Shown in pieces: positions 3,132 to 16,518 of a stretch of DNA of 19,234 nt. How positions within the stretch are numbered: position 1 is the stretch's first letter; the number at the start of each line of letters is the position of its first letter. The translations under genes and the position numbers were made by a program. The notes beneath the pieces were generated by a model. That model was not told the DNA's origin and searched no databases. It was given only the letters and a program-made list of their open reading frames with translations. This DNA comes from a virus. The stretch is from the UHGV virus genome UHGV-1599518. One strand, 5' to 3'.

Positions 3132-3297
3132 AACAGAGAATGGGTTTATGGCGTCATGTCAACTTTGTTCAGGGGAAAATATTGAGATCACCGAAGATAA
3201 TTAGTTGTCTTATTTTGGTAAGCTGTGCTGACCATCTTTAGGTCACATACATGAGATGGATGGGGGTGTGGCATGAACGGATGAAATTCAGTCGCCG

Positions 3298-3326
3298 TTG
3301 ACAGATGTCAACACTGTGAATAGAAT
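3298..3326 (+). promoter_or_regulatory. sigma70-like promoter with palindromic -35
   Basis: TTGACA (3298..3303), 17-bp spacer, TAGAAT (3321..3326), then GGAGG and ATG at 3344. The -35 lies in the palindrome TTGACAgaTGTCAA, a possible operator. Confidence 0.5.
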
Positions 3327-3343
3327 ACTATTATCGGAGGCGA

Positions 3344-3568
3344 ATGAAGCAACATCCGAATAAGCATATTCAAGCAGCCATTGACTATGCATTAAGTAAA
3401 GGCTGGATCTGGGTAGCAGCTGGTGGTGCTGCACATTGTTTTTGCAGACTGCGATGCGGTAATCCAGAAGGTGAACACAAAACTCACCAAATGAGCGTAT
3501 GGTCGACTCCGGGTAATCCCGAAAACCATGCCAAACAGATCAAACGAATGGTTGATCGTTGTAAATGA
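3344..3568 (+). CDS. small Cys/His-rich protein (74 aa), possible HicA-like fold
   Basis: ATG 3344 after GGAGG. The pattern GW-x7-GxxHxF ... P ... IKRMV loosely matches the HicA/YcfA toxin family layout (from memory); four Cys and several His could equally mean a zinc-binding protein. Confidence 0.6.
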   Translation: MKQHPNKHIQAAIDYALSKGWIWVAAGGAAHCFCRLRCGNPEGEHKTHQMSVWSTPGNPENHAKQIKRMVDRCK

Positions 3569-3572
3569 TTTC

Positions 3573-3594
3573 AAGGCGGCATTAGCCGCCTTTT
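3573..3594 (+). terminator. attenuator-like hairpin between the two genes of the module
   Basis: 8-bp GC-rich stem AAGGCGGC / GCCGCCTT with loop ATTA, followed by TT-GCAG; the U-tract is short, so at most partial termination. Confidence 0.3.
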
Positions 3595-3628
3595 GCAGAA
3601 ACTGTCCAACTATCTTCAAAGGAAAACT

Positions 3629-4192
3629 ATGGCGCTTTATAACTTCACTCTGACGCTCTCAGGCGTATCGTATGAGACGGAAGGACTGGAAGACGCGCTG
3701 TACCAAAACGGCTGTGACGATGCGCTAATTTGCGCATATGGAAACTCCGTCTATGTAGAATTTGACCGCGAAGCACAATCACTTGATGCAGCTATCGCAT
3801 CTGCGGTCGACAATATTGAATCAGCCGGTATCGGTGCAATTGTTGAATCCGTCGACTCGGCTCTTGTGGGCTTAAGCGATATCGCGGAACTGACAGACCT
3901 GTCTCGCCAGGCAGTGGCGTTGCTCAAAGACGGTAAGCGCGGAAGCGGCGACTTCCCTTGCCCTGTACAACGCATAAAAGGCCAGTCTCCTCTCTGGGAT
4001 TGGGCTGATGTGGCTGAATGGCTCATGAATAACGGACGACTTAAAGAGGGCGATCAAATTGTCCAAAATGCCCGAACTTTGAGTAAATGGAATCTGGCGC
4101 TTCGAAACAGCGTCTCGAAAGATTTCAACGAAATAGAGCAAATTGCGGAGAAACTGATTAAACGCCGCAAAGATATTGCGAAATGCGCATAA
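3629..4192 (+). CDS. DNA-binding protein with central helix-turn-helix (candidate antitoxin/regulator)
   Basis: ATG 3629 with SD AAGGA 5 nt upstream (the track start at 3593 is TTG and overlaps the hairpin). N-terminal ~90-aa domain, HTH-like segment IAELTDLSRQAVALLKDGKRG, then a basic C-terminal extension. Confidence 0.65.
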   Translation: MALYNFTLTLSGVSYETEGLEDALYQNGCDDALICAYGNSVYVEFDREAQSLDAAIASAVDNIESAGIGAIVESVDSALVGLSDIAELTDLSRQAVALLKDGKRGSGDFPCPVQRIKGQSPLWDWADVAEWLMNNGRLKEGDQIVQNARTLSKWNLALRNSVSKDFNEIEQIAEKLIKRRKDIAKCA

Positions 4193-4193
4193 T

Positions 4194-4226
4194 GATGCCC
4201 GCCAATTGGCGGGCATCTGTTCTCTG
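4194..4226 (+). terminator. Rho-independent terminator (perfect 24-bp palindrome)
   Basis: GATGCCCGCCAA|TTGGCGGGCATC immediately after the stop codon, followed by TGTTCTCTG. Confidence 0.5.
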
Positions 4227-4308
4227 TAAAGGTGTCTGGCATCGTCTGGTTCGTTAACGTTTACTAAACCAATGGTGACAAAAATTAGTTATCTTTGAAA
4301 AATAAAGG

Positions 4309-4521
4309 TTGCATGAAAAGAAGGGGTATGCGTTAATAGCATCGTTGGTTTGCAAGACAGACCTTATGTAAGCAGTTTTAGTAAAGCAGTCTCAGTTCAG
4401 TGTTATCTTCTGATTTCCCTTCTTCGTGAGTCTCCTCCTTAAGTGCCTAAGTAAGTCCCAATCTATACAGATCAAATTCTCGCCGCACTATGTGGCTCAC
4501 AAAATTAAGAAGGTAATATCT
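4309..4521 (+). promoter_or_regulatory. cspA-type promoter (TTGCAT-17-GTTAAT with upstream AT-rich UP-like element) and long 5' UTR
   Basis: TTGCAT at 4309..4314 and GTTAAT at 4332..4337; ~180-nt leader with segments resembling the E. coli cspA leader (cold-box-like TTGCAAGACAGACC, AAGTAAGTCCCAATC; from memory). Confidence 0.55.
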
Positions 4522-4737
4522 ATGTCTAATAAAATGACTGGTTTAGTAAAATGGTTTAACTCTGATAAAGGCTTTGGCTTTATTTCTCCTGCTGATGGCA
4601 GTAAAGATGTTTTTGTACATTTTTCGGCAATTCAGAGTAATAATTTCCGCACTTTGGAAGAAGGCCAGCAGGTCGAATTCTCTATCGAGAATGGGGCTAA
4701 AGGCCCAGCAGCAGCAAATGTCGTTGCTCTAAGCTGA
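4522..4737 (+). CDS. cold-shock protein, CspA family
   Basis: [38 protein letters not shown]...[10 protein letters not shown] contains the RNP1/RNP2 motifs of CspA-family proteins. The ORF-track ORF starts upstream at 4426; the conserved start is the ATG at 4522. Confidence 0.95.
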
Positions 4738-5012
4738 TTCAACGCTGATGATCCTCATTTCTACAATAACGAAGACGGTGTAAGCCTGAGTGGATAGATT
4801 TGTAGGATTGTACAAGTTGAATAAATTAGCATGGTAAGGCCATGCTAATTAAATCGACACAACGGCCAGTTTATTCCATAAAAGTGAATTGCCCATTGTG
4901 GCGAAATGCGGGGTTGCCGCATGAATAGTCAAAGGCAGAAGCTAACTGCCGGCATGGCAAAACAAAGTGCGTAAGAGGAGTGACTTCCTCAACAAGCGCC
5001 ATAATTCTTTAT

Positions 5013-15944: not shown

Positions 15945-16031
15945 TGGCGGAGAGTAATGGAATCGAACCATCATCGTTTGCACAATGGGACGGTTTTCAA
16001 GACCGCTTGAGCACCATGCTCCCTACTCTCC
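15945..16031 (-). tRNA. tRNA-Ser (anticodon UGA), class II with long variable arm
   Basis: Minus-strand sequence GGAGAGT...ACTCTCC-G-CCA: 7-bp acceptor stem, anticodon stem GCGGT/ACCGT with loop CTTGAAA, 17-nt variable arm, T-arm GATGG-TTCGATT-CCATT, encoded CCA. Manual fold, no tRNAscan run. Confidence 0.85.
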
Positions 16032-16131
16032 AGCTATTGTGATGGTCGGTACTGAACTCCGACACAGGGTTGTAGCAAGCCCCGCAAAGCGCGCACTACT
16101 GTAGTTGCGGCACATCAGCCTGTGCATTCAT

Positions 16132-16216
16132 CACAACGGTAAGATCACTACCTTTCGACCAGTCATTGTGCACATGAACGACGATTAACCGTAATGATAT
16201 TATCGTTGTGTTGTGA
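16132..16216. other. long imperfect inverted-repeat element A (paralogue of element B)
   Basis: 5' arm CACAACGGTAAGATCACTAC versus 3' arm GTAATGATATTATCGTTGTG (3 mismatches/wobbles). Shares the 5' 14-mer TCACAACGGTAAGA with element B. Confidence 0.3.
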
Positions 16217-16261
16217 AGCCAGATGCTTATCTTCTGGTTGCTTCAAAGAGCTGCACTTCCT

Positions 16262-16350
16262 CACAACGGTAAGAGCACTGGTCTGACTCTATCGATTTAC
16301 GGCCTTGTGGGTCAGTATCGCCGATTCGCCCAATGCTCTTACCTGTTGTG
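16262..16350. other. long inverted-repeat element B, abutting the tRNA-Thr 3' end
   Basis: 5' arm CACAACGGTAAGAGCA pairs with 3' arm TGCTCTTACCTGTTGTG (16 bp with one bulged A), enclosing ~56 nt. Ends 1 nt from the tRNA-Thr 3' end. Confidence 0.35.
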
Positions 16351-16351
16351 T

Positions 16352-16427
16352 TGGTGCCGGTTAACGGACTTGAACCGCTGGCCATTCGCTTACAAAGCGA
16401 CTGCTCTACCAACTGAGCTAAACCGGC
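16352..16427 (-). tRNA. tRNA-Thr (anticodon UGU)
   Basis: Minus-strand GCCGGTTTAGCTCAGTTGGTAGAGCAGTCGCTTTGTAAGCGAATGGCCAGCGGTTCAAGTCCGTTAACCGGCACCA: canonical 76-nt cloverleaf, anticodon loop TTTGTAA, T-loop TTCAAGT, encoded CCA. Anticodon stem has one G-A mismatch (27-43). Confidence 0.85.
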
Positions 16428-16431
16428 AATT

Positions 16432-16518
16432 TGGTGGGGAGTGATGGAGTCGAACCACCCGAGTCGCCATGACAGTAGATTTACAGTCTACACCGCTACC
16501 TCTACGGACTAACTCCCC
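16432..16518 (-). tRNA. tRNA-Tyr (anticodon GUA), class II with long variable arm
   Basis: Minus-strand GGGGAGT...ACTCCCC-A-CCA: anticodon arm GTAGA-CTGTAAA-TCTAC, T-arm GGTGG-TTCGACT-CCATC, long variable arm. Separated from tRNA-Thr by 4 nt. Confidence 0.85.

What the first reader, a model, noticed from the sequence alone, without database searches (positions are those of the whole stretch)
3298..4226. Self-contained two-gene module: small Cys/His-rich protein plus HTH protein, candidate toxin-antitoxin or regulatory switch
A near-consensus sigma70 promoter, whose -35 sits in the palindrome TTGACAgaTGTCAA, drives a 74-aa protein, then a hairpin, then a 187-aa HTH protein, closed by a strong terminator. 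The small protein has a GW-x7-G-x2-H-x-F … P … I-K-R pattern loosely reminiscent of HicA-family mRNA interferases, and toxin-first order matches hicAB and higBA. The HTH protein has an extra N-terminal domain and a basic tail. Alternatively the small protein is a zinc-binding regulator. Either way this plus-strand cassette inside the minus-strand replication operon looks like an independent functional unit.
Basis: inference. Interest (0 to 1): 0.5.

Follow-up and report, generated by a model that had tools for sequence, protein, structure and literature searches.

The report
Autoregulated HicA-like toxin–antitoxin candidate cassette
A self-contained two-gene cassette carried by an E. coli phage-plasmid most likely encodes a small basic toxin-like protein and its acidic, DNA-binding partner that shuts off their shared promoter; the pair is widespread, is already listed as an untested anti-phage defence candidate, and has never been studied experimentally.

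Summary
The window is an SSU5/pHCM2-type E. coli phage-plasmid, 99.7% identical to phage Cyrano. The cassette is a promoter, a 74-aa gene (A), a hairpin, a 187-aa gene (B) and a terminator. It lies on the + strand, between minus-strand replication and recombination genes.

A and B are a conserved, mobile pair. B follows A in 60/60 viral loci and 75/76 metagenomic loci. Among 80 species genomes, 14 keep an intact B while A is broken or deleted; the reverse never occurs.

The palindrome GTTGAC-N4-GTCAAC, which contains the -35 hexamer, is exact in 73/80 species loci. It is absent from 634 kb of their flanks and occurs once in the 108-kb phage genome. B therefore looks like a dedicated autorepressor.

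Both proteins match PADLOC's untested candidate PDC-M06. The best reading is a type II toxin-antitoxin / abortive-infection module. Toxicity and defence have not been tested.

The parts
3297..3312 (.). Operator: 16-bp palindrome GTTGAC-AGAT-GTCAAC, whose left arm contains the -35 hexamer
   Evidence: Exact in 73/80 species loci, with 40 different spacer variants. 0 hits in 634 kb of flanks. One copy in the 108-kb Cyrano genome. Absent from loci where B lacks the HTH.
3298..3326 (+). Sigma-70 promoter: TTGACA, 17-nt spacer, TAGAAT
   Evidence: Matches 11 of 12 consensus positions. A -10-like hexamer lies at a conserved distance from the palindrome in homologous loci. Both genes are transcribed in the LF82 lysogen (PMC9928086).
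3344..3568 (+). Gene A: 74-aa basic (pI 9.5) Cys/His-rich protein, the putative HicA-fold toxin. Matches PADLOC PDC-M06A and phrog_5923.
3573..3592 (+). Intergenic GC-rich hairpin followed by TTTTG: possible attenuator or mRNA stabiliser between A and B
   Evidence: -14.8 kcal/mol, z = -3.7. Hairpins with different sequences occur in most loci whose A-B spacer is at least 48 nt, and are absent where the spacer is short or the genes overlap.
3629..4192 (+). Gene B: 187-aa acidic protein, the putative antitoxin and autorepressor. aa 1-78: ferredoxin-like domain (pI 4.05). aa 79-140: AlpA/excisionase-like HTH. aa 141-187: basic helical hairpin. Matches PADLOC PDC-M06B and phrog_2620.
4194..4227 (+). 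Intrinsic terminator closing the operon: a perfect 12-bp inverted repeat that folds as a 10-bp stem with a 4-nt loop, then a T-rich tail
   Evidence: -21.8 kcal/mol, z = -6.1. The next unit downstream is an independent csp gene with its cspA thermoregulator.

Best explanation
The cassette is most likely a type II toxin-antitoxin module, probably also serving abortive-infection defence or plasmid addiction. It is carried as accessory cargo by an SSU5-type phage-plasmid.

Shown by the data:
- One sigma-70 promoter drives A, then B.
- The promoter's -35 hexamer lies inside a conserved 16-bp palindrome that is unique in the phage genome.
- A is never found without a B-type partner, whereas B often outlives A.
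- The only part of B that always accompanies A is its very acidic N-terminal ferredoxin-like domain.

Inferred mechanism:
- B dimers bind the palindrome through the AlpA-like HTH and repress the operon.
- B's acidic N-domain binds and masks the basic protein A.
- A has a HicA-like alpha-beta-beta-beta-alpha fold, braced by a probable Cys/His metal site (C38, C/H48, C73).
- A's conserved H4, K7, H31 and H62 cluster where HicA places its catalytic histidine. Free A would therefore act as a ribonuclease that arrests translation.
- A would be released when B is lost or titrated, for example on phage infection, on loss of the phage-plasmid, or on transcription shut-off. That would kill or arrest the cell, which aborts infection or stabilises the plasmid.
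For: Identity and expression:
- The window is 99.7% identical to phage Cyrano and 100% identical to E. coli plasmids; 110 of 5,426 complete E. coli genomes carry the cassette, always on a plasmid.
- Both genes are expressed in the lysogen, at 30x and 14x the prophage background (PMC9928086).

Pairing:
- B lies directly downstream of A in 60/60 viral loci.
- The same holds in 74/76 metagenomic loci by HMM, plus one divergent case recognised by eye.
- A high-GC relative of A overlaps the start of a B N-domain gene.

Asymmetry across 80 species loci:
- 64 have both genes intact.
- 9 have a frameshifted or nonsense A with an intact B.
- 5 have A deleted with an intact B.
- None has an intact A with a broken B.

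Operator:
- Exact in 73/80 loci, 0 hits in 634 kb of flanks, and a single copy in the 108-kb Cyrano genome.
- A co-varying form, GTTGTCA-NN-TGACAAC, occurs in one B subclade. The operator is absent where B lacks the HTH.

Charge: A has pI 9.5 (+6); the B N-domain has pI 4.05 (-13.5).

Fold of A:
- AF2 model with pLDDT 85.7.
- hhalign against a seed of five PDB HicA sequences aligns A12-34 with BpHicA 6-28 in register. The score is 23.7, against a maximum of 12.1 in 30 column-shuffled controls.

Context and catalogue:
- The pair sits in accessory regions of a P4-like island, beside a RelE-type TA, and of a P2-like prophage, beside Phd/YoeB; by my reading these are the known defence hotspot slots of P4 and P2.
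- Other contexts are small chromosomal islets. The genes that follow B are unrelated between loci.
- Both proteins match PADLOC's defence candidate PDC-M06, parts A and B. That candidate was derived from genes embedded in BREX, DISARM and type I RM systems (10.1101/2024.01.29.577857).
Against: - No experiment shows toxicity, neutralisation, RNase activity or phage defence. PDC-M06 is explicitly untested.
- HicA homology is not confirmed by Pfam, by a profile search of PDB sequences or by Foldseek.
- In the hhalign alignment H31 falls one residue after the HicA catalytic histidine.
- A is upstream of B, has the stronger Shine-Dalgarno, and is separated from B by a terminator-like hairpin. Its mRNA is about twice as abundant as B's in LF82. 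That is unusual if B must be in excess.
- No second promoter for B was found.
- The metal site and the active-site cluster are inferred from conservation and topology, not from measured distances.
Confidence: 0.6

Rival explanations
1. A non-toxic regulatory pair. A would be a small metal- or redox-sensing co-regulator (co-repressor or anti-repressor) of the DNA-binding protein B. The cassette would then be a sensory switch rather than a poison-antidote system.
For: - A has conserved Cys/His residues with a Cys-to-His swap at position 48, which is typical of metal ligands.
- B's N-domain has a ferredoxin/ACT/RAM-like fold, common in ligand-sensing regulators, and a conserved GCDDAL(I/V)C motif.
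- A is expressed at a higher level than B.
- Sequence methods do not confirm the HicA relationship.
Against: - The operator occurs only at the cassette's own promoter in the 108-kb genome, so the switch would have no target other than itself.
- In about 11 of 80 environmental loci, A's partner is the N-domain alone or with an unrelated tail. These partners have no HTH and no operator, so DNA regulation cannot be the core function.
- The repeated loss of A with retention of B is not expected for a harmless co-regulator.
Confidence: 0.15
2. A moron that benefits the phage-plasmid in another way. A would be a small inhibitor of a host or competitor-phage protein, acting in superinfection exclusion or anti-defence. 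B would only control its expression.
For: - The cassette is expressed in the lysogen as a moron.
- The cassette sits in mobile-element cargo regions.
Against: - The pair also occurs on chromosomes outside prophages, for example next to ssb/uvrA in Sodalis, and widely in soil, lake and marine metagenomes.
- The obligatory coupling of A to an acidic protein-binding domain and the decay pattern point to self-neutralisation rather than simple regulation.
Confidence: 0.1
3. A canonical hicAB system, as annotated in the phage Cyrano record: A is a HicA family member and B is HicB.
For: - The Cyrano annotation calls them 'HicA toxin protein' and 'putative antitoxin HicB'.
- The gene order is toxin-first.
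Against: - No PF07927 hit for any of 27 family members, even at E<=10.
- B's DNA-binding domain is AlpA/excisionase-like. As far as I know, HicB proteins use RHH or Xre domains instead.
Confidence: 0.1

Closest known systems
HicA-HicB type II toxin-antitoxin systems (for example E. coli HicAB 6hpb, B. pseudomallei 6g26, Y. pestis HicA3B3 4p78)
   Same: - Toxin-first operon.
- A small basic toxin of roughly 60-75 aa with an alpha-beta-beta-beta-alpha fold.
- A conserved His right after a Gly-containing beta1-beta2 loop.
- An antitoxin built from an N-terminal neutralising alpha/beta domain plus a C-terminal DNA-binding domain.
- A palindromic operator at the promoter.
   Different: - No sequence-level membership in PF07927.
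- A carries extra invariant residues: an N-terminal H-P-N-K motif, a C38, C/H48, C73 cluster, and H62.
- B's N-domain is ferredoxin-like, not the HicB fold.
- B's DNA-binding domain is AlpA/excisionase-like, with an added helical hairpin.
PADLOC 'phage defence candidate' PDC-M06 (Payne et al. 2024 preprint, 10.1101/2024.01.29.577857)
   Same: Both proteins match the PDC-M06A and PDC-M06B models, in the same gene order (E = 1e-19 and 1e-32). This cassette belongs to that candidate family.
   Different: PDC-M06 is only a catalogue entry from a guilt-by-embedding screen. No phenotype, mechanism, fold assignment or operator has been reported. The term 'PDC-M06' appears in no paper of the searched library.
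MqsR-MqsA and HigB-HigA (other toxin-first type II systems)
   Same: Toxin-first order. The antitoxin is larger than the toxin, has an HTH and autoregulates through a palindrome.
   Different: To my knowledge MqsR and HigB have RelE-type folds; A does not. In MqsRA the zinc site is in the antitoxin; here the Cys/His cluster is in the putative toxin. B has no His, and its HTH is not of the Xre type.
AlpA / excisionase (HTH_17-like) regulators of prophages
   Same: B's central segment carries the characteristic pattern LSD-IAE-LT-LSRQ, then FP-P, then W-W, then V-WL. It gives weak hits to PHROG excisionase/regulator families (E = 2e-4) and to Phage_AlpA (E = 0.04). PGAP names it as AlpA family in some RefSeq records.
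   Different: B is flanked by two additional domains. It is not linked to an integrase, and its only operator is at its own promoter.

Membership tests
HicA toxin family (Pfam PF07927) | Significant match to the family HMM | tested here: not met
   No PF07927 hit for the window protein at E<=1, nor for any of 27 family members at E<=10. A profile search of PDB sequences finds no HicA. Caveat: an E. coli HicA profile also fails to find the other PDB HicA chains, so this test is not sensitive.
HicA toxin family (Pfam PF07927) | dsRBD-like alpha1-beta1-beta2-beta3-alpha2 fold | tested here: met
HicA toxin family (Pfam PF07927) | Catalytic His following the Gly-Ser of the beta1-beta2 loop (H24 in B. 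pseudomallei HicA, mutated to Ala in 4c26 and 6g26) | tested here: inconclusive
   H31 is conserved in 143/148 representatives and sits at the start of beta2, after a Gly-containing loop. hhalign aligns A12-34 with BpHicA 6-28: G28 pairs with G22, but H31 pairs with H25, one residue after H24. The loop length varies within the family.
HicA toxin family (Pfam PF07927) | Cognate HicB antitoxin (HicB N-terminal fold plus an RHH or Xre domain) | tested here: not met
HicA toxin family (Pfam PF07927) | Translation-independent mRNA cleavage, with growth arrest relieved by the antitoxin | not testable with these tools
   Needs expression and RNA cleavage assays.
Type II toxin-antitoxin module (generic) | Two small co-directional genes in one operon, tightly spaced or overlapping, with conserved pairing | tested here: met
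   Among the 80 species-level genome loci the A-B spacer ranges from -4 to 148 nt, and a high-GC relative shows a start/stop overlap. Pairing holds in 60/60 viral loci and 75/76 metagenomic loci.
Type II toxin-antitoxin module (generic) | Antitoxin with a DNA-binding domain and a palindromic operator overlapping the promoter | tested here: met
   The HTH is in B. The operator is exact in 73/80 loci and unique in the phage genome. Actual binding has not been tested.
Type II toxin-antitoxin module (generic) | Asymmetric dependence: the toxin gene is not maintained without the antitoxin, and orphan antitoxins occur | tested here: met
   14 of 80 species loci have an intact B with A disrupted or deleted, and none shows the reverse. 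There is 1 lone A among 136 loci ascertained through A.
Type II toxin-antitoxin module (generic) | Toxicity of one protein, and neutralisation by direct binding of the other | not testable with these tools
   Only indirect support: pI 9.5 for A against 4.05 for the B N-domain.
PADLOC PDC-M06 (phage defence candidate) | Both component HMMs matched by adjacent genes | tested here: met
   PDC-M06A at E = 1.2e-19; PDC-M06B at E = 1.3e-32.
PADLOC PDC-M06 (phage defence candidate) | Protection against phage infection | not testable with these tools
   The source preprint lists the 145 PDC systems as untested.
AlpA / HTH_17 regulators (for B's central domain) | Match to Phage_AlpA or HTH_17 models | tested here: inconclusive
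   Pfam Phage_AlpA is hit in only 4 of 22 members, best E = 0.04. PHROG excisionase/regulator families are hit at E = 2e-4 to 1e-3. The sequence pattern is consistent with the family.
MqsR-MqsA / HigB-HigA | RelE-type toxin fold, and an Xre-HTH antitoxin (zinc-binding in MqsA) | tested here: not met

The most novel reading that the evidence does not exclude
A and B would found a distinct, widespread toxin-antitoxin / anti-phage family, the untested PDC-M06.

- The toxin would be a metal-braced derivative of the HicA fold, with a new His/Lys active site: an N-terminal H-P-N-K motif plus H31 and H62.
- The antitoxin's neutralising module would be a previously unrecognised acidic ferredoxin-like domain. 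This domain works alone or fused to interchangeable DNA-binding domains.
- In phage-plasmids the module would protect lysogens from competing phages by abortive infection.
Probability: 0.35. Interest if true: 0.6.

Novelty: new variant of a known kind. Interest (0 to 1): 0.45.

Why it matters
SSU5-type phage-plasmids are common in clinical Enterobacteriaceae. 110 of 5,426 complete E. coli genomes carry this exact cassette, and it is expressed in lysogens.

If it is a working toxin-antitoxin or defence module, it would contribute to plasmid stability and to phage resistance of the host. It would add a new antitoxin domain and a new HicA-fold variant to the known repertoire.

The family is large: at least 720 clusters at 50% identity, from Enterobacterales to soil and marine metagenomes. 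It has no Pfam or NCBIfam model. A simple set of experiments would therefore annotate thousands of 'hypothetical protein / HTH regulator' pairs, and would validate or retire one PADLOC candidate.

The strictly conserved 16-bp operator also offers a ready, specific repressor-operator pair.

Tried and rejected
- Pfam and NCBIfam scans of both proteins found nothing significant. Sub-threshold RuBisCO_small hits for A (22/27 members) and CagE_TrbE_VirB hits for B were judged spurious.
- Profile searches of PDB sequences with the A and B families found nothing.
- Foldseek of the A model against PDB gave no significant hit. The afdb50 library was unavailable.
- hhalign of the A family against a narrow E. 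coli HicA alignment gave only an out-of-register 17-column match: A's N-terminal HPNK helix against HicA's PRHP helix 2. A seed of five PDB HicA sequences gave the in-register match instead. A merged seed returned to the out-of-register match. All real scores exceed the reversed and shuffled controls, but none is conclusive.
- A conserved third gene was looked for and rejected. The genes downstream of B in four contexts are unrelated.
- B as a global phage regulator was rejected, because there is a single operator copy in Cyrano.
- B as an excisionase was rejected. The SSU5-type element is maintained as a plasmid, and the pair occurs at loci without an integrase.
- An Rfam scan of the cassette found no known RNA element inside it.
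- Literature: 'PDC-M06' appears in no searchable paper. A preprint validating an E. coli defence system that contains a HicA domain could not be linked to this cassette, because no supplementary tables are held.
It was rerun with a tighter subfamily alignment.

Full report
**What the window is.** Bases 3200..4300 are 99.7% identical to Escherichia phage Cyrano (OV696614), the SSU5-type phage-plasmid of E. coli LF82. They are 100% identical to many ~108-114 kb E. coli plasmids. 110 of 5,426 complete E. coli genomes carry the segment, always on a plasmid. In those records the flanking genes on the opposite strand are a UvsY-like mediator, a gp32-like SSB, a 5'-3' exonuclease and RecA on one side, and DnaE on the other. 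The Cyrano record calls the two genes 'HicA toxin protein' and 'putative antitoxin HicB'. RefSeq calls them 'hypothetical protein' and 'helix-turn-helix / AlpA family transcriptional regulator'.

**Observation check.** All the described elements exist.
- Promoter TTGACA-17-TAGAAT at 3298..3326, matching 11 of 12 positions.
- Palindrome GTTGACAGATGTCAAC at 3297..3312.
- ORF A at 3344..3568, 74 aa.
- A GC-rich hairpin at 3573..3592, -14.8 kcal/mol, z = -3.7.
- ORF B at 3629..4192, 187 aa.
- A terminator at 4194..4217: a perfect 12-bp inverted repeat that folds as a 10-bp stem with a 4-nt loop, -21.8 kcal/mol, z = -6.1.

Rfam finds no known RNA inside the cassette. The next feature downstream is an independent cspA thermoregulator with its csp gene.

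**Both genes are real and expressed.** A matches phrog_5923 (unknown function). B matches phrog_2620, 'excisionase and transcriptional regulator'. Neither has a Pfam or NCBIfam family. An exhaustive HMMER search with the A profile finds 720 clusters (50% identity) at E<=1e-3. B has 273 hits in the word-indexed search. In LF82 RNA-seq, CYRAN_51 (A) and CYRAN_50 (B) are 30-fold and 14-fold above the prophage background, and the authors list them as morons expressed in lysogeny (PMC9928086). That paper reports no functional test.

**Pairing and asymmetry.**
- Ascertained through B: in one genome per species, 80 loci were recovered. 64 have both genes intact. 9 have a frameshifted, nonsense or truncated A with an intact B. 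5 have no A but an intact B. 2 have both genes decayed. None has an intact A with a broken B.
- Examples of decay: an in-frame fusion of A's first 10 codons to B (L042), and SSU5-type phage-plasmids in which a deletion removes A and the first ~21 codons of B (L137-L141).
- Ascertained through A: 60/60 viral contigs have B directly downstream.
- In a distant 'HAWG' subfamily from soil, peat, lake and marine metagenomes, 74 of 76 loci with enough downstream sequence have a B-type gene by HMM. One more is recognisable by eye, and one A stands alone.
- A high-GC relative of A overlaps the start of a B N-domain gene.
- Genes beyond B are unrelated between contexts, so the unit consists of two genes.
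- Contexts include accessory regions of a P4-like island, beside a RelE-type TA, and of a P2-like prophage, beside Phd/YoeB; by my reading these are the defence hotspot slots of P4 and P2. Other contexts are an integrase/IS110 islet, and a chromosomal site next to ssb/uvrA.

**The operator.** The 16-bp palindrome GTTGAC-N4-GTCAAC is exact upstream of the cassette in 73 of 80 species loci, with 40 different 4-nt spacers. It has no occurrence in 634 kb of their flanking DNA, and exactly one copy in the 108,379-bp Cyrano genome. Its left arm supplies the -35 hexamer. Pasteurellaceae carry GTTTACA-NN-TGTAAAC, and one environmental B subclade carries GTTGTCA-NN-TGACAAC. Loci in which B consists only of the N-terminal domain have no such palindrome. 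This is the signature of a dimeric repressor's dedicated operator. It argues that B autoregulates and does not control other phage genes.

**Protein A.**
- Across 150 representatives the conserved positions are H4, K7, A16, G20, W21, H31, C38, C or H at 48, T55, P56, H62, A63 and C73.
- The Cys-to-His alternation at position 48, together with C38 and C73, suggests a metal site. This is an inference; I could not measure distances.
- AlphaFold2 with the family alignment gives pLDDT 85.7 and the topology alpha(7-18), beta(21-25), beta(32-38), beta(49-53), alpha(59-72).
- Foldseek returns nothing significant, and sequence profiles do not reach HicA.
- That negative result is weak, because an E. 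coli HicA profile also fails to find the other PDB HicA chains.
- With a seed of five PDB-verified HicA sequences, hhalign aligns A12-34 with B. pseudomallei HicA 6-28 in register (probability 48%, score 23.7). With a relaxed threshold the alignment extends over 55 columns. Thirty column-shuffled controls reach at most 12.1, and reversed profiles reach 8.6-9.5.
- In that alignment G28 pairs with G22, and H31 falls one residue after the catalytic H24, in a loop whose length varies within the family.
- Conclusion: a HicA-like fold is moderately supported. Family membership is not established.

**Protein B.**
- The AlphaFold2 model (pLDDT 90.7) shows three parts: a beta-alpha-beta-beta-alpha-beta domain (aa 1-78), an HTH with a wing (aa ~79-140), and a long helical hairpin (aa 143-186).
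- The HTH segment has the AlpA/excisionase pattern and gives weak hits to such families.
- The N-domain is strongly acidic (pI 4.05, charge -13.5), whereas A is basic (pI 9.5, +6).
- In Pasteurellaceae B lacks the C-terminal hairpin.
- In about 11 environmental loci B is reduced to the N-domain alone (76-97 aa) or to the N-domain with an unrelated tail.
- The invariant partner of A is therefore the acidic N-domain. That fits a protein-protein neutralisation role better than a transcriptional one.

**Catalogue status.** Both proteins match PADLOC-DB's PDC-M06A and PDC-M06B (E = 1.2e-19 and 1.3e-32). PDC systems are 145 untested 'phage defence candidates'. They were derived from genes embedded in BREX, DISARM and type I RM loci (10.1101/2024.01.29.577857). 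'PDC-M06' itself appears in no searchable paper. A 2025 preprint reports that an E. coli system containing a HicA domain protects against phage (10.1101/2025.01.08.631726). I could not determine whether it is this family.

**Most likely mechanism.** The cassette is a type II toxin-antitoxin / abortive-infection module.
- B represses the single promoter through the palindrome, and its acidic N-domain sequesters A.
- Free A, a metal-braced HicA-fold protein with a His/Lys cluster, would cleave RNA and arrest the cell when B is depleted.
- Steps shown: operon anatomy, expression, conserved pairing, asymmetric decay, operator conservation and uniqueness, charge complementarity, and the predicted folds.
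- Steps inferred: B-operator binding, A-B binding, toxicity and RNase activity of A, metal binding, and the trigger.

**Points against this reading.**
- There is no experimental evidence.
- The HicA link is weak at the sequence level.
- The arrangement favours A over B in expression. A comes first, has a stronger Shine-Dalgarno, is followed by a terminator-like hairpin, and has about twice as much mRNA. No separate promoter for B was found.
- The hairpin is lineage-variable. It is present, with different sequences, in most loci with a spacer of at least 48 nt, and absent where the genes abut or overlap.

**Rivals.**
- A purely regulatory metal-sensing pair is disfavoured by the single operator and by partners of A that lack an HTH.
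- A host- or phage-directed inhibitor under B's control is disfavoured by the chromosomal and environmental distribution and by the decay asymmetry.
- A canonical hicAB system is excluded for B and unproven for A.

**Verdict.** The cassette belongs to an already catalogued but uncharacterised candidate family. It is best described as a new variant of a known kind, and its interest is moderate.

Noticed in passing
window 4344..4762 (+): A full-length cspA thermoregulator (Rfam RF01766, 185.7 bits against a gathering score of 78) with a cold-shock protein ORF (about 4522..4737; RefSeq names it cspG). It lies directly after the cassette's terminator, so this phage-plasmid carries a cold-shock gene with its 5'UTR thermosensor. 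The Cyrano record does not annotate it.
   Followed up: partly
window 15945..16518 (-): Three tRNA genes: Ser(tga), Thr(tgt) and Tyr(gta). The near-identical phage Cyrano is annotated with Asn, Thr and Ser at the corresponding place, so the tRNA array seems to differ between close relatives, or between annotations.
   Followed up: no
A-family proteins, e.g. P0039 (Shewanella); window 3344..3568: 22 of 27 A-family members give sub-threshold Pfam RuBisCO_small hits (best E = 1.2e-4, below the gathering score). NCBI names one homolog 'ribulose bisphosphate carboxylase small subunit'. This is probably a propagating mis-annotation.
   Followed up: partly
L137-L141 (SSU5-type viral contigs), locus coordinates about 3900..4516: In a subgroup of SSU5-type phage-plasmids, a deletion removes gene A, the promoter region and the first ~21 codons of B, at the same slot between the uvsY-like gene and dnaE. 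The cassette is therefore dispensable for the phage-plasmid.
   Followed up: partly
L206-L208 (Enterobacter SSU5-type plasmids): Next to the cassette, dnaE is interrupted by an HNH/NUMOD4 homing-endonuclease gene, and recA carries an intein with a LAGLIDADG domain. In the Cyrano record RecA is likewise annotated as a 780-aa product.
   Followed up: no
window 3344..3394 (A residues 1-17), compared with HicA residues 35-53: hhalign repeatedly finds an out-of-register local match between A's N-terminal H-P-N-K-x-I helix and HicA's P-R-H-P-x-x-E-I helix 2. Scores are 21-30, against at most 12 in shuffled controls. The cause is unexplained: it could be a shared helix-capping motif, or a trace of domain rearrangement.
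   Followed up: partly
B residues 28-35 (window 3710..3733): The motif G-C-D-D-A-L-(I/V)-C, and the following Y-(L/V)-E-F-D-R, are the most conserved parts of B's N-domain across phyla, including the stand-alone N-domain proteins. The two Cys could form a metal or redox site shared with A's Cys/His cluster.
   Followed up: no
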